DNA of 59,186 bases, counting the filler, from Sphacelaria rigidula (lineage: Eukaryota): the NCBI GenBank assembly GCA_964200075.2. It is 10 parts of 10 records of this genome, joined end to end, with 100 filler letters (N's around TTAATTAATTAA, not from the genome) between each part and the next. Parts side by side here need not be neighbours in the genome. Positions count along the whole stretch, not along the records: positions 53,359 to 59,186 come from CAXNAA020024147.1; 9 more parts are not named here. One strand, 5' to 3'. The notes below the pieces were generated by a model that was not told the origin of the DNA, ran no database searches, and saw nothing but the letters and a program-made list of their open reading frames with translations. This document shows, one piece after another, positions 39,054-59,186 of this stretch; within the stretch, counting starts at the first letter, position 1; every line of letters starts with the position of its first letter. The position numbers and the translations under genes were made by a program.

Positions 39054-41350
39054 TCAATTGTTGTTGTTAGTGCGGTGGGTCCCGTGCCCACGGCGTGGTG
39101 CAGCACCTGAAGGGTCGTCGTCAGAGTCGTCTACGTCACGACGATGGCGAGGGGGGTGCGGGGTGATCCAAGCTCCATCATCATCGGGCGGCAGTGTGTT
39201 GCGGGCTGCCCGCATGGCGGCAAAGAGGGCGGCGACGGCGGTCTCATAATTAGAACGAGCGTCCCCGGCACCAATCGTGAGGTAAAACACGATCCGTTCG
39301 ATGGTGAGAGCACGGGGGTCGTTGTGCGGGAGCTGTCCACCTTGTTGGAGGAAGGGGACGATCACACCGTTGACGGGCAGGATGAGGGAGTTCCAAGCCT
39401 GCTCAGAGGCGCGAAGGACGTTGTTGCAGGTGTATTCTTCCGAAAGTTGGCGGAGCGTCCAGCCGAACCAAGCACGTTCGCTGCTCTGCAGGTGCAGCCC
39501 GGGCGTGGCGGCGGGGGGCGCCAAAGCCCGAGGGACCTGCAGTGGTGCAGGCGGGGGAAGCGGGAGCGAGGCCGCAGAAGCCGCGGCAGTAGCGCGTAAG
39601 CGCGAAGGCTGGCGGTCTGCTCGAGAGCCAGGAATGGCGGCGGCAGATGCAGGCTCTACAGGCGTGGTCCGGAGCAGAGGAAGCCGTAGTCGCAGTTTCG
39701 GTCGCGGTCTCGCATTGACGCAAACGATGTTCATCGCGGCGTACGGAATCCTGTACCTGACCGAGCGTAGCGAGGCGTTCATTGAGGGTACGTTGAGCCG
39801 CCCGCTGGCGGCTGGATGCCGAATCAACGACCTGGCGTTGGCGCACCAGTCGTTCCGCGAGGTCATCCGGAATAAGACGGGGAGCAGCGTTGTCCACCGG
39901 TTGTCGGGATGAAGGTGGCGCCAGGGCCGTGGCCGGTTCGAAAGCTTGATATTCAGCCAGAACTTGTTCCTAGTCTGCTCGGGCGCCACGAAGCCAGAGC
40001 CGGAGCGGAAGGCCCGATGGGCAATGCTCGACGCCTTACAGGGGGCGATCGTCCGTGTTGGGCTCGGGGGCAGGCGCCGGAGCCGAGCCCGCGGCAGTAG
40101 AATTTGGCGGCGAAGGGCCGATGTCGCCGAGGCGGCCGTGGCAGGGGTGCGGCCCTGATCCGCCGTGGTGAAATCCGTTGGAGCCGCCGCGCGGGGAGCG
40201 GGAGGCGTGACACGGGTGCTCTCGGCATCCGTATCGATGTCGGCTGCTGTGGAAGGGGCAGGGGCTACGATGGGTGCAGTAGTCGAAGGTGCAGGGGCAT
40301 TGGCCATAGTTGCAGCGGAGCGTAAGTAGCGACGAAGATCTGCAATTTGTTGTTCGACAGAACGCACAGTGGCAGCATCGGGATGAGGCGGAAGGGCACG
40401 GTGAGTGCTATGTCTGCTGCGCAAAGGTGCGTGAATATTAGCCAACGAAGGATCAACGGGCAGACGTGAGCTCACGTGTGTCTGATCGACAGATTTAGGC
40501 CGTGAGGATACCGTGGCTGAAGATAGTCCTGATAATAGAGCACGTACATCATGGGCATGGGTGGTGGTATCACCGTGGTGAACAAGGTCGTCATGATCCA
40601 AATCAAAATCAGAAGCAACATCTGAGGTTGAACGTACATCATCAGGGTCTGCAGCCAGTGGTGCAGAGGCTCGATGGTTTATATTACTGTCAAAGTGAAC
40701 ATGATCAGAAGACGTTGAATGCCTAATGGCTGTGTGGAACGCGGTTGCAAGCGCTTGTGAAAGGACAGTTGTCGCCGAACCGTCAGAAATGGCAGCCGGT
40801 GATGAACGAAGCAAGTGCTCAAGAGCCGTTACTAAAGGCAAGTGCTCTGCGGAAGGCGCTTCGGAGCGGTCAAGACGCGAGGAGGATGGTCGGCGCGAGG
40901 TGCGGTGAACAGAAGTGTCCTCACGATACATGTCTTGTCGGCGCTGGCGCTGGGAGGCGGCGTAACCCTCAACACCGCGAGCGCGGGATGAGTCAATAAC
41001 CGTGGTAGGAGCCTGAAACCGTTGGCGTTCCACAACAGTGGCGACGCGTGGCGACTCATCAGACATATGGGATCCCCGAGACTGAGCCTGTTGCACAACA
41101 GAACGAGCGCGTAGCGACTCGTCGACCATGTTGGAAGTCTTGGACAGTGTAGGTTCCGCGACAGAGCGAGCGCGGAGCTACTCGTCGATAATGCCGGGAG
41201 TCTTGGACAGTGCACAGTCCACGACAGAGCGAGCGCGTAGCGACTCGTCGATAATGTCGGGAGTCTTGAACGGTGTGAGGTTCGCAACAGAGCGAGCGCG
41301 GAGCGTCTCGTCGATAATGTTGGAAGTCTTGGGCAGATGGCGGTCGTGGT
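39054..41350 (-). pseudogene. Long low-complexity ORF upstream of gag (extra ORF or N-terminal gag extension)
   Basis: 691-aa ORF on the same strand as gag/pol; continues upstream past one TAG through 21-aa repeats; probable internal frameshifts. Confidence 0.55.
41098..41335. repeat. 63-bp tandem repeat, about 4 copies (21-aa IIDESLRARSV repeat on the minus strand)
   Basis: acagagcgagcgcg..gc..ctcgtcgataatg..gg.agtcttg at ~41098, 41161, 41224 and 41287. Confidence 0.9.
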
Positions 41351-49233: not shown

Positions 49234-51717
49234 GTGTGTTCGTCACCAGGCAAACAACGTGTTACGCAAGACGACTCGTCTCCTAACTCGCCCACGTTGG
49301 CCCCTTTAATCAACGCCGGGTTGAACAGTACAGCTTTACCAACCCCGCGTCCTGACGAATCGTCTCCAAAACCTCCCATGTTGACCCTAACTAGTGATGT
49401 TAATGAGTTGATTGGCGTATCAAACTCAACACCGCGCCCCGATGGCTCGTCCCCTGTTCCGACCAAGCTGGATAATGTAATTGATCCCGCTTTGCACAAC
49501 GACGACTCGCCCCCTCCGTTGGCCAATAAGGGTGAAACACCACGCACAGACCAGTTGTCGGGTCCAACCACGACAACTGCCCTTCCCTGGCATCGCCCCT
49601 CCGTTGCAGTATATGAGATTCAACCCTCGACTAATGAGATAAATATTCCAGGCACAAACACTGACACTCCATGCACGCACCATCCCTCCGACAAAAAGCA
49701 TGCCCCACAGGATCATCAACGGGTGTATTTTAGCACCTTCGTTCAAAACGCAAAGCAGGATGTGTCAGATGTCTTACCCGAATTCGGGCGCGATCTTATC
49801 AGTGGTACTGCAACTATGGATGATGCTTCTTTTACGACCAAGATAGGTTTACATAATCGAACGCGTGCAAACTGTCATTCGATAGCTCTTGCACTACCAT
49901 ACTCTGGTTCACCTCAAACGTTCATTACAGCCAGCTACTGGCAACAGATCATCAACGCGGGTGCGGCGGACGAGCATTGTCCGTCCACCGTGTGCCCTCC
50001 TGTTTTTGGTGAGTTTGGTTCCTCCACATCTCTTACGGTCAATCAATCGGTGAGACTAAGTGTACAATTCTACCAGGATACTACTCCCACTGCTCGGTTG
50101 TCCGTATGGGCACTAATTGTGCCCGACGGTTCCATGTCTTTTGACGTTTTGCCGGGTCGAGATAGCTGGCTTTGTTTTTCCACACACACGTACACGACGG
50201 ACACACCCGTCCCGAACCGTCCAGTCACAGGCAAACTATCACTGGGTCACTTCGACACTGATTCGGGAGCTCATGCTTATCAGGATGACCCCACGAAAAC
50301 AGGTAATGCTTTCCGTCTGTACTATGCTGGTGAACCTGTAGTCTCGCTTTCTTGTGAACCCCAACTAATACAAGTGAACCTCGTGAGACGCAAGGGATCG
50401 CCCGCCCTCACAGGACATTATTTGGTCGAATTTCTCAAACCTGACCAAGCACAGGTTGGTCCGTTTGAACGGACGGAGGTCTTTGTCCACAAAGGTAGGC
50501 AGGCCATTTACCTCACGTCCCCTGCGTGTTTCGATATACTCAAGGGTCAGTTGTTGGGTTATGCTCAAGCGCCTCTCATACGAGCCGCCCCGTCAGATTT
50601 ATGCCCGCCTGCGAACAACAACTCGCCGACCGACCCCCCGAAATCCACGGGCCCCCCTCTGCTACACATGCGTGACCCCATGGTGGTGACAAATCCACCG
50701 GGTGCGCCTGAACCTCAACCCCCAACTGCATTACTGGATAGATTTTCCCCAGAACAACGCGCCAGTTTTCAAAAGCTGTGGGATGACATTCCCCCTCACT
50801 TACGGCATATTGTTTTTGATCTATCTGGCGATGGTTGGACACCCACTGTAATCGATAGATTGAGATCCATCTTGATTAGATACTTTGAACGGTTTTCTAC
50901 TGCACCCTTGGATTTAGGTCGATGTACCACGACACTGTGTAAGATCAAGATTCCGGATGGCACTCCGCCTATCGCTATGCGCCCGTACCGTACGAACCCC
51001 CTCTTAGCGGATAAGATCCAGGTCATTCTCGATGGTTACTTATCCGCCGGTGTGATTCGGCACTCGACGTCTCCGTGGGCCTCGCCTTTAGCAGTCTTCC
51101 GTAAGAAAAGTGGCAAAATCAGACTGACGGTCAATTATCAACGATTGAACGCTGTCACCAAAATCGCCCGGCTGCCACTTCCACGGATTGATGAAATCAT
51201 TGACTCTCTTGGCGGGGGTAAGGTATTTTCGAACTTTGACTTGCAGTCCGGCTACCACCAGCTCGTGATGGATCCAAATTCCGTTGAACTGACAGCGTTT
51301 TGTACGCCATCAGATTTGTACGAGTGGCTGGTTACACCACAAGGTGCCGCCGGAGCTCCAGGTGCGTTTCAACGTGTAATGTTCCGAGTAACTGATGGAT
51401 GGCACAAATGCCATATGTACCTTGATGATGCGGTGTGCCACGACTCCGCACCGGCTGAACACGTCAAACAGTTGGCATCATTCTTTAATCGGTTTAAACA
51501 ACACAACTTGAAACTCGCCCACTCCAAATCCCGCATTGGCGCCACGAAGAGTGAGTTCTTGGGTCATTGCATCACCCCCGAAGGTCGTAGCCCAAACCTC
51601 GACAAGGTCGCCGCCCTCTCCGATATGCCCATGCCACGGAACATTTCTCAACTGCGTTTCTTGTTGGGAGGTCTCAGGTACTACAGACAGTACTTGCCAG
51701 CCTTGCCCACACGCTAA
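49234..51717 (+). CDS. Ty3/Gypsy pol: protease (catalytic D appears mutated), linker domain, reverse transcriptase
   Basis: ALPYSGSPQTFI, RPYRTNP, STSPWASP, RLTVNYQRLN, FSNFDLQSGYHQ, TAFCTP, MYLDD, EFLGH. Confidence 0.95.
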   Translation: MCSSPGKQRVTQDDSSPNSPTLAPLINAGLNSTALPTPRPDESSPKPPMLTLTSDVNELIGVSNSTPRPDGSSPVPTKLDNVIDPALHNDDSPPPLANKGETPRTDQLSGPTTTTALPWHRPSVAVYEIQPSTNEINIPGTNTDTPCTHHPSDKKHAPQDHQRVYFSTFVQNAKQDVSDVLPEFGRDLISGTATMDDASFTTKIGLHNRTRANCHSIALALPYSGSPQTFITASYWQQIINAGAADEHCPSTVCPPVFGEFGSSTSLTVNQSVRLSVQFYQDTTPTARLSVWALIVPDGSMSFDVLPGRDSWLCFSTHTYTTDTPVPNRPVTGKLSLGHFDTDSGAHAYQDDPTKTGNAFRLYYAGEPVVSLSCEPQLIQVNLVRRKGSPALTGHYLVEFLKPDQAQVGPFERTEVFVHKGRQAIYLTSPACFDILKGQLLGYAQAPLIRAAPSDLCPPANNNSPTDPPKSTGPPLLHMRDPMVVTNPPGAPEPQPPTALLDRFSPEQRASFQKLWDDIPPHLRHIVFDLSGDGWTPTVIDRLRSILIRYFERFSTAPLDLGRCTTTLCKIKIPDGTPPIAMRPYRTNPLLADKIQVILDGYLSAGVIRHSTSPWASPLAVFRKKSGKIRLTVNYQRLNAVTKIARLPLPRIDEIIDSLGGGKVFSNFDLQSGYHQLVMDPNSVELTAFCTPSDLYEWLVTPQGAAGAPGAFQRVMFRVTDGWHKCHMYLDDAVCHDSAPAEHVKQLASFFNRFKQHNLKLAHSKSRIGATKSEFLGHCITPEGRSPNLDKVAALSDMPMPRNISQLRFLLGGLRYYRQYLPALPTR

Positions 51718-53258: not shown

Positions 53259-53426
53259 NNNNNNNNNNNNNNNNNNNNNNNNNNNNNNNNNNNNNNNNNN
53301 NNTTAATTAATTAANNNNNNNNNNNNNNNNNNNNNNNNNNNNNNNNNNNNNNNNNNNNCGCCGCTGAATTGCACCCGCTGGCTCCCATCGAAACACTATC
53401 GCCGTAACCAGCCGCACTCGACGCCT

Positions 53427-54220
53427 CTACCGCCGTTTCCGTGTCCACCGCCCCCCCGGCAGCTCGCCCATCACCACTGTCGCATCCCACTGCCGGGCCC
53501 CACCCCCCTCTGTGCGTCCAAGAGCGTCGGCGCGTCCCACCGCGTATGCCATAATCGCCGCCGGTGTCGCGGCCCCTGCTTCGCCCGGTAACACCGCCGC
53601 CGCCGTCGCCAGCGCCTCTTCTTCCGCCGCCGCCGCCACCACCGCTTCTTCCACCGCTGCCGCCACCGCCGCCAACACCACTGCCATTTCTTCCACCGGG
53701 AGCGCTGGCGTGGAGCCGCTTCGGGCGGGCGGTATTTCACTACCGTACGTCACTATCAAGGGTTCATAGTGATTTTCGACCAATGCTCGCTCGAATACAC
53801 CGCTAGCCAGATAGTTCCTCGCCTGTTTGCTGTTTTCCCGCAGCCAGCTCTGGAAGCCTGACCCTCGGGGCAGGGGCTTGGTCGATGTGGGACGGAACTT
53901 CGTCTGACCCTTTCGCATCTTTTCTGTCCGCCCTCGCTGCTCATGGGCCTTGATGATTCCCACGGCATCGGGGTCGTCGTGGGCAACTATTAATAGCTCG
54001 GTCCCGGCGTCGGTCCATTCGGTATGCACCTTGTCGACATGGTAGCTTTCCACTGCTGGATAACCGCCCTCAGTCGCGGCCTGAGGAGGTTCGCGGTGGA
54101 CCTCCGTCGCGTAGTCGACGGCATGACCCTGAGCTACGTAGAACGGGTCGAGCTGCTCGGCATCGGGACAGGCGGATCGTACCCACTGATTCGCGACGCT
54201 CTTGTTGGAATGCCCTAAAC
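53427..54220 (-). pseudogene. Academ-like transposon protein, exon 3: start of XPG/FEN(PIN)-like region, then Ala/Glu-rich low complexity (3' boundary uncertain)
   Basis: Acceptor ttgcctacag|; the phase-1 join gives PFSMLNSNGG-LGHSNKS; motifs HAVDY, LLIVAHDD...IKAHEQRGR, FQSWLRENSK. Confidence 0.6.
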
Positions 54221-54501
54221 CTGTAGGCAACGTGGGGGTGCGGTGATAAGAGGAAAGGGGTGGTGTGGCAGAAGATGACTGTGCGTGAGGGTAGAAACAA
54301 AATCGATCTGACGGCCGTTGGGAATGATCACTACAAATATGTGCGAAAGCATCCGGCGCTAGTGTACTGACGGTAAGAAAAATCCCCAGGGTTAGACACA
54401 GCCAAACTGCAAGTTGTCTACGGCCGAGTGCGATGTGAATGTGCTCGTTTCCCGGTATTGTGTCCACTGCAACTCTGGTCAGCAGTAGGTATTCCTCTCA
54501 C

Positions 54502-56711
54502 CTCCGTTGGAATTGAGCATGCTGAATGGGACGGACCCTCCGAGCTTGAGAAGTACCCTCTCCTTCTCCTCCTGAGAAATTTCGGGCGCCCCCACAATCC
54601 CTCTCAAAGCGGTCAGCAGCTCCTGCGTGTACATGGTGTTGTTCTTGGTGTTGGACTTCAACGTCGACTTCCGGCCTTGAGTCACCGTCGGTGTGGTTGT
54701 TGTGTTCTTTGGCGGGATGGTATATACCTTCTGCTTCGTTGCCCCCTTCTTGGTCTTGTCGCCCAACACATAACACGCGATGTTGTCCTCCAGCTTCTGC
54801 TGTGACACGTCGGAGCAAGACAAAATGGCCGCCGCCTGCGGACCGCTGACCACTCGCCCGTCCAGGGCATGCAGGACCTCTTCGCCGGCCGGCGTGAAGG
54901 CAGGAGTGTAGTGTAGCTTCTGATACGCCTTCGTCACGTGGGGCTGATGTTTGAGGAACAACTCTCTTTCACGGTTCCGCCCGGCACCCTCCCCAAAGAA
55001 CAAGTGTTCCTTCACTGCTGCTTCCGCCATATCCCGGCATTCTGCGATTGGAGCAAGTTTCTCCAGTGCAGTAGGCGTCTTCTTGTTCGTGACTTTTTTG
55101 AAGAACCTGTTCGCCATCTCCTGCCGCTCATCGAGTCCCACCCTTGCCCAGTATCTGTTGTCGCGCAACGATACCGAGAAGAGCTGTTCCACGAACTTCA
55201 GGTTCGATTCCGGCATTTGCGCCATGTGCATAAGGTATAGCACCACCAGCCACTGGTAACGGTCTTTACCTGTTACACAGAATATGAATGCCATGCGGCG
55301 AAGCCCTGCCAGCCGAAGGAGGAAGTTGCCTGTGCGCAGGCCCGTTCGGAATGCCATATACGCGGGGCAGTAGTGAAGGACGAAGCTCTCCCACACTCGG
55401 AAGCTCTTGTGGTTTTCCGCCCGGGCCCGAACCCAAGATCGAATGGCAGGAATGTCTTCCCTCCTCGCATGCACCTTCACCTTGTTAGCTATATCGTGAA
55501 ACTTTTCTGCCAGCTGCTCCACGGTTTTGTCGAAGGGTTCATGGTCGTCACTGCCACTGACGTCGGGCGCCGCCGCCGCCGCTGCTCCTGAGGTGGTGGT
55601 CGCCGCTGATGCCATGCTGGAGGCGGATCGTATTCGGCTGCCGGCGCCCGCCACTGGTGATGTGCCGAATGTGGGAGATGGCCCCATATCGGCGGCCACT
55701 GCTTCGCCGTCGGCGCGGCCGCCTACCCCGCCGCCGCCGCAGTCCGGCGCGGACGGTTGTCCTCTGTCGGTATTGAACGACAACAGCCCCGTGCCATATT
55801 CGCGGAAATCTATCAGTCCTGCGCTGGCGTGGATTACGCAGAACATCGGATCTCTCACGTCTCTGATTCCGTGCGTCGCCGCCGATGTGCAACCCTCGCC
55901 ACGACATTTGCGTTGTTCAGCCCCTGCAGTGCTTGGAGACTGCAGGCCCCGCGGACCGCTTGACTGTTGACCCGCGTCGACATGCTCTGTCACCCCCGCA
56001 CCGCCTCGTGTTGTTACCGTAGCGGAAGGTGCCTCCGTACGAACGCCGATTGCAGGCGCTGCCATACTGTTTATCTGCAGAGATGATGCTGCGGCGGGTC
56101 CCGCAGGGTGCAGTATTGTCTGGGCGTCCGGTGGCATGGGTGGCGTTGTCGCCGCACCAAGTGCTGGTGCTGATGCTTCCGCGGGATCCGATCCTGGTGC
56201 TGTGGCAGTCTCCGGCACCTCACCGGCATCACTCGCCGCGGCTCCGGCGTTGGTCACTTCCGTATCGCCGCCATGCTCGGTACATGGCCACTATTTTATC
56301 CCACGTTGCTTCGAAGAACACGCTGATGGTATGGTGTGCCACCCGATAGTTGGTAGCCTCCGATGCTTTTGTTCCGTCCACGCCAAGCGCCGCTGCGATG
56401 AACTCTATCCTTGCCCCCCCAAACCGGTTCATGATGACCTTCGCCATGTGGTACAGAAGGTGCCAGTCACCCACGTATATTCTGAGCCAGTGATAGTGGC
56501 CGGGGTTACTCCGAATCAGGTGATACATGAAGCGAAATGTCTCCTCATCACCGGCAACCATGCATGCCGCCGCCGCGCCCCTCTCGTCCACTCGGCGTAT
56601 ATCGGCAAGACGGTCGATGGCGGCCTTGGAGTCGGACCAACTCTTTGTGGTGCCCAGTTGCATGAAGAGGTACTTGAACACCTGCGGCTCCCTCTGCATC
56701 ATCGGTATCGC
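54502..56711 (-). pseudogene. Academ-like transposon protein, exon 2: DDE core with an inserted low-complexity and EsV-1-7 segment; one frameshift near 56280
   Basis: cccccatcag|AIPMM...AGDEETF...YVGDWHLLYH...[frameshift]...LRTGNFLLRL...GKDRYQ...GLDERQEMAN...PFSMLNSNG|gtgaga. Confidence 0.75.
55805..55909 (-). other. EsV-1-7-type cysteine-rich motif
   Basis: KCRGEGCTSAATHGIRDVRDPMFCVIHASAGLID fits C-x4-C...(F/H)G...FC-x2-H-A-x2-G(M/L)(V/I)D. Confidence 0.8.
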
Positions 56712-57238
56712 CTGATGGGGGAAGTCGAGGAAAAGAGCACACAAGCGCGGATGATGTAGGGTTTACACCCCGTTAGGCATTTGTTCACCCTCACACCTTC
56801 AATCCATGCCACTCTGCGAGGTGCGCACGTCGGAAATAGGATAAGCACTTGTGCATTCCCTGAAATGTTTCCACCGACTCTTCTTCTCCTAATCTCTTAT
56901 TCCTGAATTGTTTACGATGCAGAGTCAGTACCGGGTAGGAAACGCGGCAACGGCATCTGTAGGGCTTTCGAATCCGCACCTTGCCAAACTACTCGGTGCG
57001 AGCAAATACACTTGGATTACCCGTGCGCGGCGTCCGCGCGGAATTATGTCATCACCTAACCCTAACCCTGGCTCAAGTGTAAACAGCCTGATGGTGATGC
57101 GAGCTGAGCTCCAAGATCTTGATAGTATCATGCCAAACGCAACACTGCGCCCCACGCACAGTTGCGTGATCCCGCCGTCTTTCGACATTAATTTCCCGAC
57201 CAAGTACTGCGCACCCAAAAGTTGCCGGCTCTGTTCAC

Positions 57239-59173
57239 CTGTCTGAGTTCGATCTCCAAGCAAGTTTCGATGTCGCCACCTCCACCTGCGATCCTCGCCA
57301 CCGCGCAACGGAATGCTGCATCCTCGAATACGGAGAGGAAACGCCCCCATTGCTCACCGTCCCTGTGCCAGGAGGGTCCCGTCGTGATATCCACGGCCAA
57401 AAGATCACCTTGCCGACGGTGCGCGTGCATGAGCGATAAATGCCCAGGCAGAGTCTCCACGGCCACGCAGGTGGCCGCGATAGTACTTTTATGTGCCCCG
57501 ACCCCCGTGACACTTGTCGTCGGCCGAAAATCGCAGTTGTCCCAAGGAATCGCAGCAACCCGTAATGCGAGGGCCATGATATGTCTGTCCATCCTCCACT
57601 TCACGTGGAACTGTTCCCGCTTGTACCGCATCGACTCTGTCATGCAGAATCCATAGGCGGCGACGTAGTCGATGACAGCCACGGGTGTGCCGTGCGTTTT
57701 CAACACCTGCGCCAGATGGAAGTCGTGCATTGCTCGAAAACCTCGGCCTGAAACAGTTTTGACGAGGTTTTGCACGAGCATATACAGTCTCCCAATCCGT
57801 CTCTTCCTCTTCTTCATCTTATTGCGCAGCGCCTTTTCCCGCGGGGTCGATCCGTGTCTTCTTGCACTGGCGCGGAACATCGCCGATCCCCCTTGAGCTG
57901 CGCCCCCGTTTTCCTGTTGCGCCGTTCCACCACCAGACCCGCTTGCGGTGCCCATCAAACCCGCCTCGCCATCCCGCGCCACCGACATGTCGTCATCATC
58001 CGCCCCAGCAGTGCGAGGCGCGTGAAGAGAATCCCCTCGCCTACCGCTCCTTGCTTCATCCCCTGTCGGAAAAAGCAAGTCCGGATCATCACGCGACACT
58101 TGCAAATGGCACAGACTGCTCAGCAACGCCAACAGTGCCGGCGGCGTTTCATCCCTTAGAAATTGCTTCATGGATCTCATATTCCTCGATATGTCGGCGG
58201 CGTATTTCTGGTCCCTATCCCCCGATACGTTCCTCAGTTCGTGCGCACTTTCGATGTCCACCCTCACGATAGACCCAGCCGCTGTGACCACGGCCCGTTT
58301 ATCCTTCTTCGAACCGGCAGCTATCACCCGCTGGAGTGCGTGTTCATTAGGCTGACCAGTCTTGATCTCGGCAGTGAGGCGGGAGACAGAACGCTCCAAC
58401 TCTTGTACCCTCGTACGCATGTTGCGAACTTGAACGTCGGCCACAATGGCTACCTCGGGCGCCACCACCGACGGAACGAGATAGATGAACTTGCGTCGCC
58501 CATCGCATACAGCCGCATCAACCCCGCTCCTCTTCTCAAGCTTGGCGTCGACTGCGCCGTCCGCGACCACTGCATCGAAAATTCTCAGCGCTTGCTCCCT
58601 GGTGCGCATGTCTAGAACAGCCCGAGCGTTAACTGCGGTTCTGGCTTCGATCAGCCAGGATTGAACACCCTCCACACCCACTGAACGCCCCTCCTCAACG
58701 GTCGCAATCACTTTTTGGCGTACCTCTGCAACAAAGTCTGGCTCGGCAGGGGTAGGGGAGGGTGTTAAACCGACAGTCGCGGGTGTGCAGCTAACAGGAG
58801 GGGGGGGATTTGCCTTCCGCCTAGTACTCCTTATCCTGTGTCGATCGATGGAGCGCCACAAACAATCATCCCGGTTGCACATGCAGTCTGAACTCAGTTA
58901 ATAGTTTTTCACAAACGCAGCCGGGCGTACACTGCCATCATCCGTACACGCCTCCAGAAATTGCCGAGCCTCCGTGATTCGCGCAGCGCCAATATGACGC
59001 CAGTCACTGCCTTCCCCGGGCCCTGGTCGATGGCAGGCGAAGCACAGTCGCGATGCCGGGTTGTGTACCTGACCACAAGAAGAGCACGTGTTGCATTCCT
59101 CGTCGAAGACGGGGAACTGCATGCCACACACATCACGATTGCAAACCCGCTTACGTCCTTTCCCCCTCCTCAT
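57239..59173 (-). pseudogene. Academ-like transposon protein, exon 1: Cys-rich N-terminus, coiled coil, first catalytic motif; one in-frame TAA at 58898-58900
   Basis: ORFs 58898-59173 and 57188-58882 are in the same frame; FHLAQVLKTHG..VIDYVAAYGFCMT, IPWDNCDF; donor cag|gtgaac in phase 0. Confidence 0.72.
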
Positions 59174-59186
59174 TCCACTAACCGGG

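What the first reader, a model, noticed from the sequence alone, without database searches (positions are those of the whole stretch)
55540..56270. Phaeovirus-associated EsV-1-7 motif inserted inside the transposase catalytic core
Seen: between the putative second Asp region (GDEETF/GDWH) and the LRTGN/DERQE region lies a ~240-aa Ala/Gly/Pro-rich insert holding one C-x4-C...FC-x2-H motif. Established: EsV-1-7 repeats occur in Ectocarpus siliculosus virus-1 and in an expanded brown-algal gene family that includes the developmental regulator IMM. Inference: a transposase carrying this motif offers a route for its spread among virus, TE and host genes, or may use it as a DNA/chromatin-targeting zinc finger.
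Basis: partly seen in the sequence, partly recalled or inferred. Interest (0 to 1): 0.8.

Follow-up and report, generated by a model that had tools for sequence, protein, structure and literature searches.

The report
EsV-1-7 zinc motif inside algal transposase
A family of jumping genes in a brown alga has picked up, in the middle of its enzyme, a long floppy protein segment carrying one copy of a small cysteine-rich motif otherwise known from brown-algal viruses and developmental genes; this particular copy is broken, and a similar capture by another kind of jumping gene is already in print.

Summary
A minus-strand, intron-containing gene (59185 to about 53427) encodes a DUF6589-type protein, a putative DDE transposase, of a high-copy brown-algal repeat. 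Between its GDEETF/GDWH exon and its LRTGN/DERQE exon lies a 744-nt, 248-codon insert rich in Ala, Gly, Ser, Thr and Pro (55535-56278). It holds one C-x4-C-x16-C-x2-H unit (55805-55906).

Pfam EsV_1_7_cys scores below threshold (21.3 and 22.8 bits against 25). However, 54 of the 64 phmmer hits of the insert are true multi-repeat EsV-1-7 proteins, all matched on that unit.

The insert is coding. It is neither an intron nor private to this copy:
- it has 0 stops in 248 codons;
- its borders have no GT..AG;
- ten diverged unnamed fragments share it, some reading straight from the flanking exons into it.

The window copy is dead. It lacks 5 nt at the 5' junction that sister copies have.

None of the 14 proteins found with the nearest named homologue (itself included) carries the motif, and no viral relative was found. 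The virus-TE-host route is therefore unsupported.

An EsV-1-7 domain on an Ectocarpus Tc1/mariner transposase is already published. This is a new variant: a different transposase type and an internal position. Function, possibly a tethered zinc knuckle, is only inferred.

The parts
58898..59185 (-). 5'-open Cys-rich ORF upstream of the main ORF, cut by the window end and in a different frame from the next ORF; possibly the N-terminal zinc-ribbon part of the same protein
   Evidence: ORF list; weak Zn_ribbon_RanBP, E 0.022, 14.4 bits, below cut-off
57239..58882 (-). Long N-terminal exon/ORF; holds WDNCDF (57527-57544), the candidate first acidic motif
   Evidence: (P0001 residues 1-152 align to 57730-57239)
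56712..57238 (-). Intron 1, 527 nt, GT..AG
   Evidence: read from the sequence; homology to P0001 resumes at 56714
56280..56711 (-). Exon with GDEETF (56535-56552) and GDWH (56460-56471); ends ...IVAMY
   Evidence: (GDEET invariant, GDWH nearly invariant in 15 sequences)
56279..56280 (.). Site where this copy lacks 5 nt that sister copies have; the loss puts the upstream exon and the insert out of frame
   Evidence: table 4 ('put in behind 56279', X1 depth 434.7 of 1038, X3 106 of 282, one contig each)
55535..56278 (-). Insert core: 744 nt, 248 codons, Ala/Gly/Ser/Thr/Pro-rich, GC 65.3%, open in the frame of the downstream exon
   Evidence: 0 stops in frame, 1-9 in the other five frames; P 0.0094; homologous fragments
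55805..55906 (-). Single EsV-1-7 unit (34 residues; C-x4-C-x16-C-x2-H = 55829-55906)
   Evidence: (PF19114, 21.3 and 22.8 bits, cut-off 25)
55484..55534 (-). 17-residue helical linker found only in the insert-bearing subfamily; absent from the nearest named homologue
   Evidence: present in P0006 and P0016; helix 243-259 of the model
54502..55483 (-). Exon with LRTGN (55325-55339) and DERQE (55118-55132)
   Evidence: (D419 E420 Q422 invariant, R421 E423 nearly invariant)
54221..54501 (-). Intron 2, 281 nt, GT..AG
   Evidence: loose ends of X6 and X7 contigs at 54222 and 54500 match the opposite exon ends exactly over 12-14 letters (table 7)
53427..54220 (-). Last coding region seen (homology to P0001 down to 53916), followed by Ala-rich low-complexity sequence

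Best explanation
The gene is one copy of a high-copy, intron-containing brown-algal DNA-transposon gene. Its product belongs to the DUF6589 (PF20231) type, a putative RNase-H-fold DDE transposase with a large all-helical insertion domain between the second acidic strand and the DERQE helix. In the ancestor of one subfamily, a 744-nt GC-rich coding segment (plus a 17-residue helix) was inserted in frame. The insertion point is a naturally hypervariable surface loop of that helical domain. The segment encodes about 250 residues of low-complexity, probably disordered chain, with one divergent but genuine EsV-1-7 Cys-Cys-Cys-His unit in its middle. The element kept multiplying afterwards, so the insert is now found in several diverged copies. 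The window copy has since lost 5 nt at the 5' junction and is a dead copy. Inferred, not shown: in intact master copies the unit folds as a small zinc knuckle held on long flexible tethers. There it would add a nucleic-acid, chromatin or protein contact to the transposase, in the way accessory zinc fingers do in other transposases. My confidence is about 0.85 for the anatomy and history and about 0.45 for a functional zinc knuckle; the figure given is for the whole statement.
For: Anatomy: homology to P0001 breaks at 56280 and resumes at about 55534, with canonical GT..AG introns elsewhere. The insert is coding: 0 stops in 248 codons against 1-9 in the other five frames, P 0.0094. Its borders have no GT..AG. 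Sister contigs carry 5 nt that make one frame, AMY-YSE-HGGD... (table 4). Unnamed fragments P0008 and P0019 read from the upstream exon into the insert, and P0006 and P0016 read from the insert into the downstream exon. It is not private: 10 of 64 phmmer hits are homologues of the insert itself at 39-58% identity. Contigs of two runs from different studies cover it with variants, including one piece with 15 of 185 letters different (tables 3, 4, 8). EsV-1-7 identity: PF19114 matches profile positions 1-33 of 35. 54 of 64 phmmer hits (best E 4e-13) are proteins with 2-11 EsV_1_7_cys repeats scoring 81-513 bits, all aligned to query residues about 109-156. Against 300 canonical repeats the unit matches at C1, E4, G5, C6, A10, G13, F22, C23, H26, A27, G30, I32 and D33. 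Host family: P0004, P0074, P0076 and P0077 pass the DUF6589 cut-off (37.3, 33, 29.6 and 31.1 bits against 27), and the P0004 match spans the insertion point. GDEET is invariant; in DERQE D, E and Q are invariant and R and the last E nearly so. The linker at the insertion point varies in length and is not conserved across the 15 aligned sequences (my reading of the blocks: about 17-45 residues). In the model of P0001 the insertion point is a loop (299-308) between two confident helices. Strands 202-206 and 228-232 end at the D of GDEET and at GDWH. The only hit covering the core is the P element transposase, 6p5a_A: Z 5.2, rmsd 4.8, 221 residues aligned, model 53-403. High copy number: word depth is in the thousands across the gene (table 2). 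Hint of constraint: across the 10 fragments the motif is 59% identical (95/160), like the flanking exons (37/63 and 42/64), whereas the rest of the insert is 42-47% identical.
Against: The Pfam score is below the gathering cut-off (21.3 and 22.8 against 25). There is only one unit, whereas the 54 true family members hit have 2-11. The unit lacks the commonest basic residues K8, K18 and K19 and the G16 of canonical repeats, though position 18 is Arg, the second commonest there; position 31 has L where 85% have M. Of the 4 homologous fragments that cover all four ligand positions, only P0006 keeps all four; P0007 and P0009 have lost two each and P0021 has lost one. GC3 of the insert (0.59) is lower than that of the flanking exons (0.71-0.72). 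That the host protein is a catalytic transposase is not shown. DUF6589 has no assigned function, Foldseek found no PDB match at E <= 0.001, and Z 5.2 is within the range the tool calls common. The low-depth zone (54944-56294) extends about 590 nt beyond the insert into the conserved exon, so depth does not measure the share of copies with the insert (table 2). The identity contrast comes from related, non-independent copies, and low-complexity sequence is hard to align.
Confidence: 0.5

Rival explanations
1. Neutral passenger. The insert is real, coding and shared, but it is merely tolerated in a loop that accepts any length. The EsV-1-7 unit does nothing for the element. It was captured by chance from one of the hundreds of host EsV-1-7 genes and is decaying.
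For: The linker at this position varies in length and is unalignable among the family members aligned. Ligands are lost in 3 of 4 fragments that cover the whole unit. The unit is single and lacks the usual basic residues. Insert-less relatives exist, such as P0001 and all Ectocarpales homologues.
Against: The unit is as conserved as the transposase exons and more conserved than the rest of the insert: 59% against 42-47%. The frame stayed open over 248 codons in this copy and in several diverged fragments. The subfamily diversified after the capture.
Confidence: 0.35
2. The host gene is not a transposase. DUF6589 proteins would then be some other multi-copy gene family, for example an accessory gene of giant transposons or a domesticated gene, so the insert is not 'inside a catalytic core'.
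For: Pfam gives DUF6589 no function. There was no significant fold or sequence match to any solved transposase. The window ORFs themselves hit no Pfam transposase family at E <= 1. The Ectocarpus TE paper says, in the passages I read, that giant elements carry additional transcribed genes.
Against: Acidic residues are invariant in a pattern of strand-D, strand-GDWH, helical domain, then DERQE. The one hit covering the core is a DDE transposase. Word depth is very high and many copies are decayed. Look-alike clusters are scattered over Cnidaria, Arthropoda and Mucoromycota, as is typical of mobile-element proteins.
Confidence: 0.15
3. The insert is an unrecognised or retained intron, or is alternatively spliced, and is absent from the mature protein.
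For: The gene has at least two real introns. The gene model of the nearest named homologue lacks the segment. The insert differs in base composition from the flanking exons.
Against: There is no GT..AG at its borders. It has 0 stops in 248 codons in the downstream exon's frame, P 0.0094. With the sister copies' 5 nt it is also in frame with the upstream exon. It contains a recognisable protein motif. No joint across it appears in the joints table of the four runs, which is a weak point because the table is filtered (table 5).
Confidence: 0.07
4. The Cys/His pattern is a chance look-alike and not homologous to EsV-1-7.
For: The Pfam score is below the gathering cut-off. A second, evidently meaningless match to the bare pattern exists in the window.
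Against: 54 of 64 library-wide phmmer hits are true EsV-1-7 proteins, at E down to 4e-13 over 1.84 billion sequences. The unit agrees with the consensus at 9 non-ligand positions. The organism belongs to the group in which this family is expanded (passages).
Confidence: 0.03

Closest known systems
TcMar-2_Ec32 transposase of Ectocarpus with an N-terminal EsV-1-7 domain (Genome Biol 2025, PMC12477816; passages read)
   Same: A brown-algal DNA-transposon transposase that has acquired an EsV-1-7 domain. The authors also suggest an uncharacterised zinc-finger role.
   Different: It belongs to a different superfamily (Tc1/mariner against DUF6589-type). There the domain is N-terminal, where transposase DNA-binding domains usually sit. 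Here a single unit lies on long low-complexity tethers inside the helical domain between the acidic motifs. I did not have the TcMar-2 sequence, so the two units were not compared.
EsV-1-7 repeat proteins of brown algae and phaeoviruses, including IMM (Pfam PF19114; bioRxiv 10.1101/2024.02.19.579948 and 10.64898/2026.04.27.720984, passages read)
   Same: The ligand spacing C-x4-C-x16-C-x2-H is the same, as are the consensus positions E4, G5, A10, G13, F22, A27, G30, I32 and D33.
   Different: Family members hit here carry 2-11 tandem units. The 2026 preprint states that no Ectocarpus EsV-1-7 gene has another Pfam domain. Here there is one unit, without the usual Lys residues, embedded in another protein.
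DUF6589 (Pfam PF20231) proteins
   Same: Brown-algal homologues of the window gene pass the family cut-off, and the P0004 match spans the insertion point. They share the GDEET, GDWH and DERQE blocks.
   Different: The family has no assigned function. The window's own split ORFs do not reach any Pfam hit at E <= 1. None of the 14 proteins listed has the insert motif.
DDE transposases with an insertion domain between the second Asp and the Glu, e.g. Drosophila P element transposase (PDB 6p5a)
   Same: The order of elements is the same: strand-Asp, strand, a large inserted domain, then a helix with Glu. It is the only solved chain aligning over the core (Z 5.2, rmsd 4.8, 221 residues).
   Different: The match is weak, and there is no sequence similarity (7% identity in that alignment). 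The inserted domain here is all-helical in the model, whereas in the P element it is, from my recall, a GTP-binding domain.
Giant KDZ (Kyakuja-Dileera-Zisupton) transposons of Ectocarpus (PMC12477816, passages)
   Same: They are brown-algal DNA transposons with very long, often pseudogenised transposase genes and high copy numbers.
   Different: No window ORF or homologue hit any KDZ Pfam family at the E-values asked. That a Pfam KDZ model exists is my recall. Membership is therefore not supported.

Membership tests
EsV-1-7 cysteine-rich motif (PF19114) | Ligand pattern C-x4-C-x16-C-x2-H | tested here: met
   exact spacing at 55829-55906; the same pattern extracted 300 repeats from the 54 true family members
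EsV-1-7 cysteine-rich motif (PF19114) | Pfam HMM score at or above the gathering cut-off (25 bits) | tested here: not met
   21.3 bits, E 2.5e-4; 22.8 bits, E 8.6e-5; profile positions 1-33 of 35
EsV-1-7 cysteine-rich motif (PF19114) | Reciprocal sequence similarity to accepted family members | tested here: met
   54 of 64 phmmer hits carry PF19114 at 81-513 bits, all aligned on the unit; the other 10 are copies of the insert
EsV-1-7 cysteine-rich motif (PF19114) | Tandem array of several units (usual architecture) | tested here: not met
   one unit only in the insert; the family members hit have 2-11
EsV-1-7 cysteine-rich motif (PF19114) | Zinc binding and a compact fold | not testable with these tools
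   the AF2 model gives pLDDT below 50 over the unit; no metal modelling was available
DUF6589 (PF20231) | Pfam HMM score at or above the cut-off (27 bits) | tested here: inconclusive
   the window ORFs, split by introns, the insert and the frameshift, give no hit at E <= 1; P0001 scores 23.4 bits; homologues P0004, P0074, P0077 and P0076 score 37.3, 33, 31.1 and 29.6 bits
RNase-H-fold DDE transposase | Conserved acidic residues at the ends of core strands and on a later helix | tested here: inconclusive
   GDEET is invariant and DERQE invariant or nearly invariant in 15 sequences; strand 202-206 ends at D207 and the DERQE lies at the start of helix 417-440 in the model; the first-Asp region (WDNCDF) is modelled at low confidence
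RNase-H-fold DDE transposase | RNase-H-like fold | tested here: inconclusive
   Foldseek found no PDB match at E <= 0.001; VIA-align gives 6p5a_A at Z 5.2, rmsd 4.8, 221 aligned; model mean pLDDT is 60.6
RNase-H-fold DDE transposase | Terminal inverted repeats and target-site duplications of the element | not tested
   the gene runs off the window end at 59186, no genome is held, and there is no second copy in the window
RNase-H-fold DDE transposase | Many dispersed, partly decayed copies | tested here: met
   1525 contigs of X1 laid at 90% identity or more, word depth in the thousands, many variants and length variants. Dispersal to separate loci itself was not seen
KDZ transposase (Kyakuja-Dileera-Zisupton) | Match to the Pfam KDZ transposase model | tested here: not met
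   no such family was listed for any window ORF or homologue at E <= 1 or 0.1; HMMER filters limit sensitivity

The most novel reading that the evidence does not exclude
EsV-1-7 units have been recruited independently by at least two unrelated DNA-transposon superfamilies in brown algae: Tc1/mariner in Ectocarpus and this DUF6589-type element. That would mean the motif is a portable nucleic-acid- or chromatin-targeting zinc knuckle that helps transposases find or hold their substrate. It would also mean that transposons have been one of the vehicles, by capture, amplification and later domestication, behind the remarkable expansion and dispersal of EsV-1-7 sequences in brown-algal genomes.
Probability: 0.15. 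Interest if true: 0.65.

Novelty: new variant of a known kind. Interest (0 to 1): 0.4.

Why it matters
The EsV-1-7 family is among the most strikingly expanded gene families of brown algae and includes the developmental regulator IMM. Its biochemical function is still unknown (passages).

A second, independent case of the motif on a transposase, in a different superfamily and at an internal position, would strengthen the idea that it is a self-contained binding module. It also offers a simple test bed: a single unit, with natural copies that have and lack it.

It also flags that motif-based censuses of EsV-1-7 genes may include or deliberately exclude transposon-borne units. The Phaeoexplorer methods left out a transposon-rich orthogroup.

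On the other hand, capture of zinc-finger modules by transposases is a common theme. This copy is dead and no function is shown, so the finding is of moderate, specialist interest.

Tried and rejected
Genome and earlier findings:
- No whole genome is held.
- Earlier findings of the scan: nothing for this genome or sequence. One unrelated bacterial note came up by words.

RNA:
- No RNA holder is listed for the stretch. X6 and X7 are only guessed to be RNA.
- Cover of the insert bins 55716-56294 in X6 and X7 is 0-16, against about 100-400 in neighbouring exon bins. That is similar to the cover of intron 1 (0.6-21.5). From contigs this says nothing either way about expression or splicing of the insert (table 2).
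- No joint across the insert is listed, but the table is filtered (table 5).

Structure:
- AF2 of the 592-aa ORF with 23 rows has mean pLDDT 50.9, and nearly all of residues 1-240, including the motif, are below 50. The fold of the unit and its disorder are therefore not established.
- Foldseek of the P0001 model found nothing at E <= 0.001 against PDB or BFVD.
- A profile of the family against PDB sequences gave only E >= 0.54.

Relatives elsewhere:
- Viral contigs gave no confirmed relative of the insert (10 pattern matches) or of the family (34 pattern matches).
- Metagenome contigs gave 562 pattern matches, none confirmed.
- The N-terminal ORF found nothing among longer proteins and no usable Atlas hit. 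The Atlas for P0070 gave only unnamed or DUF6589 clusters.

Insert borders and other copies:
- I looked for a nested mobile element. No terminal inverted repeats or flanking direct repeats lie at the insert borders.
- There is no other copy of the element in the window.
- The second match to the Cys/His pattern at 40216-40293 was rejected as chance.

Organisms and literature:
- The 10 insert-bearing fragments are unnamed Logan singletons, so their organisms are unknown.
- Iyer et al. 2014 on KDZ elements is not held.
- The supplements of PMC12477816 held as text contain no 'EsV-1-7', 'DUF6589', 'PF19114' or 'PF20231'.
- Supplements of the two bioRxiv preprints, such as Table S17 listing EsV-1-7 proteins, were not seen. 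They could show whether transposon-borne units like this were already catalogued.

Alignment:
- MAFFT misplaced four fragments in the first insert alignment. I redid it on trimmed sequences and pairwise.
Full report
**Observation**

The feature is there, at the stated place. On the minus strand a 592-codon frame (54479-56257) begins with about 250 residues rich in Ala, Gly, Ser, Thr and Pro. It then runs into a conserved region holding LRTGN (55325-55339) and DERQE (55118-55132). The frame just upstream (56229-56744) holds GDEETF (56535-56552) and GDWH (56460-56471).

The Cys/His pattern C-x4-C-x16-C-x2-H lies at 55829-55906. The bare pattern occurs twice in the six-frame translation of the window. 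The mean in 100 Markov-1 simulations was 0.05, with a maximum of 1. The second match (40216-40293) sits in an alternative 123-codon frame and has no Pfam hit, so I treat it as chance.

**Gene anatomy**

tblastn with the nearest named homologue places four blocks on the window. That homologue is P0001, an unnamed partial protein of Sphacelaria rigidula, 79-83% identical in the two central blocks.
- Block 1: 57730-57239
- Block 2: 56714-56280
- Block 3: 55534-54458
- Block 4: 54212-53916

Between blocks 1 and 2 lies a canonical GT..AG intron (56712-57238). Between blocks 3 and 4 lies another (54221-54501). Between blocks 2 and 3 lies the insert.

The borders of the insert have no GT..AG. The gene runs off the window at 59186, so the element's ends are not visible. 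No genome is held, and no second copy lies in the window.

**The insert is coding, and this copy is broken**

The 744 nt from 56278 to 55535 have no stop in the frame of the downstream exon and 1-9 stops in the other five frames. Simulated sequences of the same first-order composition stayed open in 0.94% of 5000 trials.

In the window the upstream exon is one base out of frame with the insert. When public contigs were laid on the stretch, one contig in each of two runs carried 5 extra letters behind 56279. The depths were X1 434.7 of 1038 and X3 106 of 282 (table 4). On the coding strand these 5 letters make a single frame reading ...IVAMY-YSE-HGGDTEV.... The 'YYSE' is exactly what P0001 has at that point. 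So the window copy carries a 5-nt deletion, and sister copies are continuous from exon through insert to exon.

**The insert is not private**

A phmmer search of the insert alone (259 residues) against 1.84 billion representative proteins gave 64 hits at E <= 0.001. Ten of them are homologues of the insert itself, at 39-58% identity. All ten are singletons from unnamed Logan assemblies.
- P0008 and P0019 read from the upstream exon straight into the insert.
- P0006 and P0016 read from the insert, through a 17-residue helix (55484-55534), into the downstream exon.

The laid contigs of X1 and X3 also cover the insert, with variants and one piece differing at 15 of 185 letters (tables 3, 4, 8). 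The insert is therefore older than the diversification of a subfamily of copies.

The gene model of P0001 lacks it (..AMYYSE|PDKVK..). A 13-letter loose end in X3 at 56280 reads like an insert-less junction (table 7), which is only a hint. The Ectocarpales homologues have an unrelated short linker there. The insertion is thus most simply derived, but the polarity is inferred.

**EsV-1-7 identity**

Pfam EsV_1_7_cys matches residues 118-150 to profile positions 1-33 of 35. The score is 21.3 bits on the whole ORF and 22.8 bits on the insert alone, both below the gathering score of 25.

The reciprocal evidence is much stronger. The other 54 of the 64 phmmer hits all carry 2-11 EsV_1_7_cys units at 81-513 bits. 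All are aligned to the query's residues about 109-156.

Measured against 300 canonical units taken from those proteins:
- The window's unit has the four ligands.
- It also matches at E4, G5, A10, G13, F22, A27, G30, I32 and D33.
- It lacks K8, K18, K19 and G16, though position 18 is Arg, the second commonest residue there.
- It has Leu at position 31, where 85% of canonical units have Met.

It is a genuine but divergent and solitary unit.

**The host protein**

The window's split ORFs hit no Pfam family. Homologues P0004, P0074, P0077 and P0076 pass the DUF6589 (PF20231) cut-off at 37.3, 33, 31.1 and 29.6 bits against 27. The P0004 match spans the insertion point.

The 14 proteins listed for P0001 include P0001 itself. 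The named ones are from Sphacelaria, Ectocarpus, Scytosiphon and Pylaiella; six are unnamed. Nine of the 14 carry PF20231 in the precomputed column, and none carries PF19114.

In the alignment of 15 sequences:
- GDEET is invariant.
- GDWH is nearly invariant.
- In DERQE, D, E and Q are invariant and R and the last E nearly so.
- The stretch where the insert lies varies in length and is not conserved; by my reading of the blocks it is about 17-45 residues.

An AlphaFold2 model of P0001 has mean pLDDT 60.6 and a confident core at about 90-400 and 470-560. It shows:
- a strand ending at the Asp of GDEET;
- a strand ending at GDWH;
- an all-helical domain;
- a helix starting with DERQE.

The insertion point is a loop (299-308) between two confident helices.

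Foldseek found nothing in the PDB at E <= 0.001. VIA-align's one hit covering the core is the Drosophila P element transposase (6p5a_A): Z 5.2, rmsd 4.8, 221 residues aligned, model 53-403. By the tool's own notes that is weak. 'Transposase catalytic core' is therefore a reasonable inference, not a demonstration.

No KDZ family was hit.

**Copy number and transcripts**

At 90% identity, 1525 contigs of X1 and 885 of X3 lie on the 5.8-kb stretch. Word depth is in the thousands.

Depth is 5-20 times higher over 53400-54943 than over 56295-59186. It is lowest over 54944-56294. That low zone extends beyond the insert into the conserved exon, so depth does not give the share of copies with the insert.

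Loose ends of X6 and X7 contigs at 54222 and 54500 match the opposite exon ends letter for letter over 12-14 letters (table 7). Spliced forms of intron 2 therefore exist in those runs.

**Origin and the virus idea**

The insert is richer in GC (65.3%) than the exons (55.5-58%) and the introns (52%), which fits a foreign origin. No donor was found: outside the unit, the insert matches only its own copies.

The searches that bear on a viral link or a nested element gave the following.
- IMG/VR viral contigs held no confirmed relative of the insert or of the family.
- JGI metagenome contigs held no confirmed relative of the insert.
- BFVD held no fold match at E <= 0.001.
- No inverted or direct repeats mark the insert's borders.

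The proposed virus-TE-host route has no support here.

**Mechanism**

Shown:
- a single in-frame capture in a variable surface loop;
- carriage through later diversification of the subfamily;
- death of this copy.

Inferred: a zinc knuckle on flexible tethers that adds a contact to DNA, chromatin or a partner protein.

In favour, the unit is as conserved among the ten fragments (95/160, 59%) as the flanking exons (37/63 and 42/64). The rest of the insert is less conserved (282/596 and 144/339, 42-47%).

Against:
- there is a single unit without the usual lysines;
- ligands are lost in 3 of the 4 fragments that cover the whole unit;
- the compared copies are not independent.

I put a functional module at about 0.45 and a neutral passenger at about 0.35.

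**What is known**

The full-text searches for 'EsV-1-7' with 'transposase' (1 paper) and with 'transposon' (3 papers) lead to one relevant report. [quoted passage not shown] Its supplements held as text do not mention the motif or DUF6589.

A 2026 preprint states that no Ectocarpus EsV-1-7 gene has another Pfam domain (passages). The Phaeoexplorer methods excluded a transposon-rich orthogroup from the EsV-1-7 census (passages).

'DUF6589' occurs in one held paper, without a function.

The present case is thus a new variant of a known kind: the same motif, another transposase type and an internal position.

**Limits**
- Only contigs could be laid, not raw reads.
- The organisms of the insert-bearing fragments are unknown.
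- Supplements of the bioRxiv preprints were not seen.
- The motif's fold could not be modelled with confidence.

Noticed in passing
window 49234-51717 (+): An 827-aa ORF with a reverse transcriptase domain (RVT_1, 86.1 bits): an unrelated retroelement about 1.7 kb from the 3' end of the transposase gene.
   Followed up: partly
window 53400-54943 versus 56295-59186: The 3' part of the gene has 5-20 times the word depth of the 5' part in X1 and X3 (table 2). This suggests many 5'-truncated or internally deleted derivative copies.
   Followed up: no
window about 57050-57066 (intron 1) and loose ends at 56280 in X6/X7: Telomere-like TTAGGG units occur in intron 1. They also occur in the short sequence that replaces the insert in other, about 92% identical, copies (table 7).
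   Followed up: no
window 58898-59185 (-): A Cys-rich 5'-open ORF with a weak RanBP-type zinc-ribbon hit (E 0.022), in a different frame from the next ORF. It is possibly the N-terminal DNA-binding part, separated by another frameshift or a small intron.
   Followed up: no
P0080, P0081 (Ectocarpus homologues), C-terminal 400-500 residues: The longer homologues carry a further conserved C-terminal region that has no Pfam family above its curated cut-off. The window's frame 53427-54220 aligns only to its beginning.
   Followed up: partly
window 39054-41177 (-): A 707-codon open frame of low complexity with no Pfam family. A meaningless match to the Cys/His pattern lies in an overlapping frame at 40216-40293.
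   Followed up: partly
window, every about 5929 nt (e.g. 53259-53302, 53315-53358): Paired runs of 44 N at regular spacing, 792 N in all. These are evidently masks rather than assembly gaps.
   Followed up: no
window 55556, 55587-55718, 56208-56283: Length variants among insert-bearing copies: a 3-nt insertion, and skips of 130 and 74 nt in single contigs (tables 4, 5). This is typical of unstable low-complexity coding sequence.
   Followed up: no
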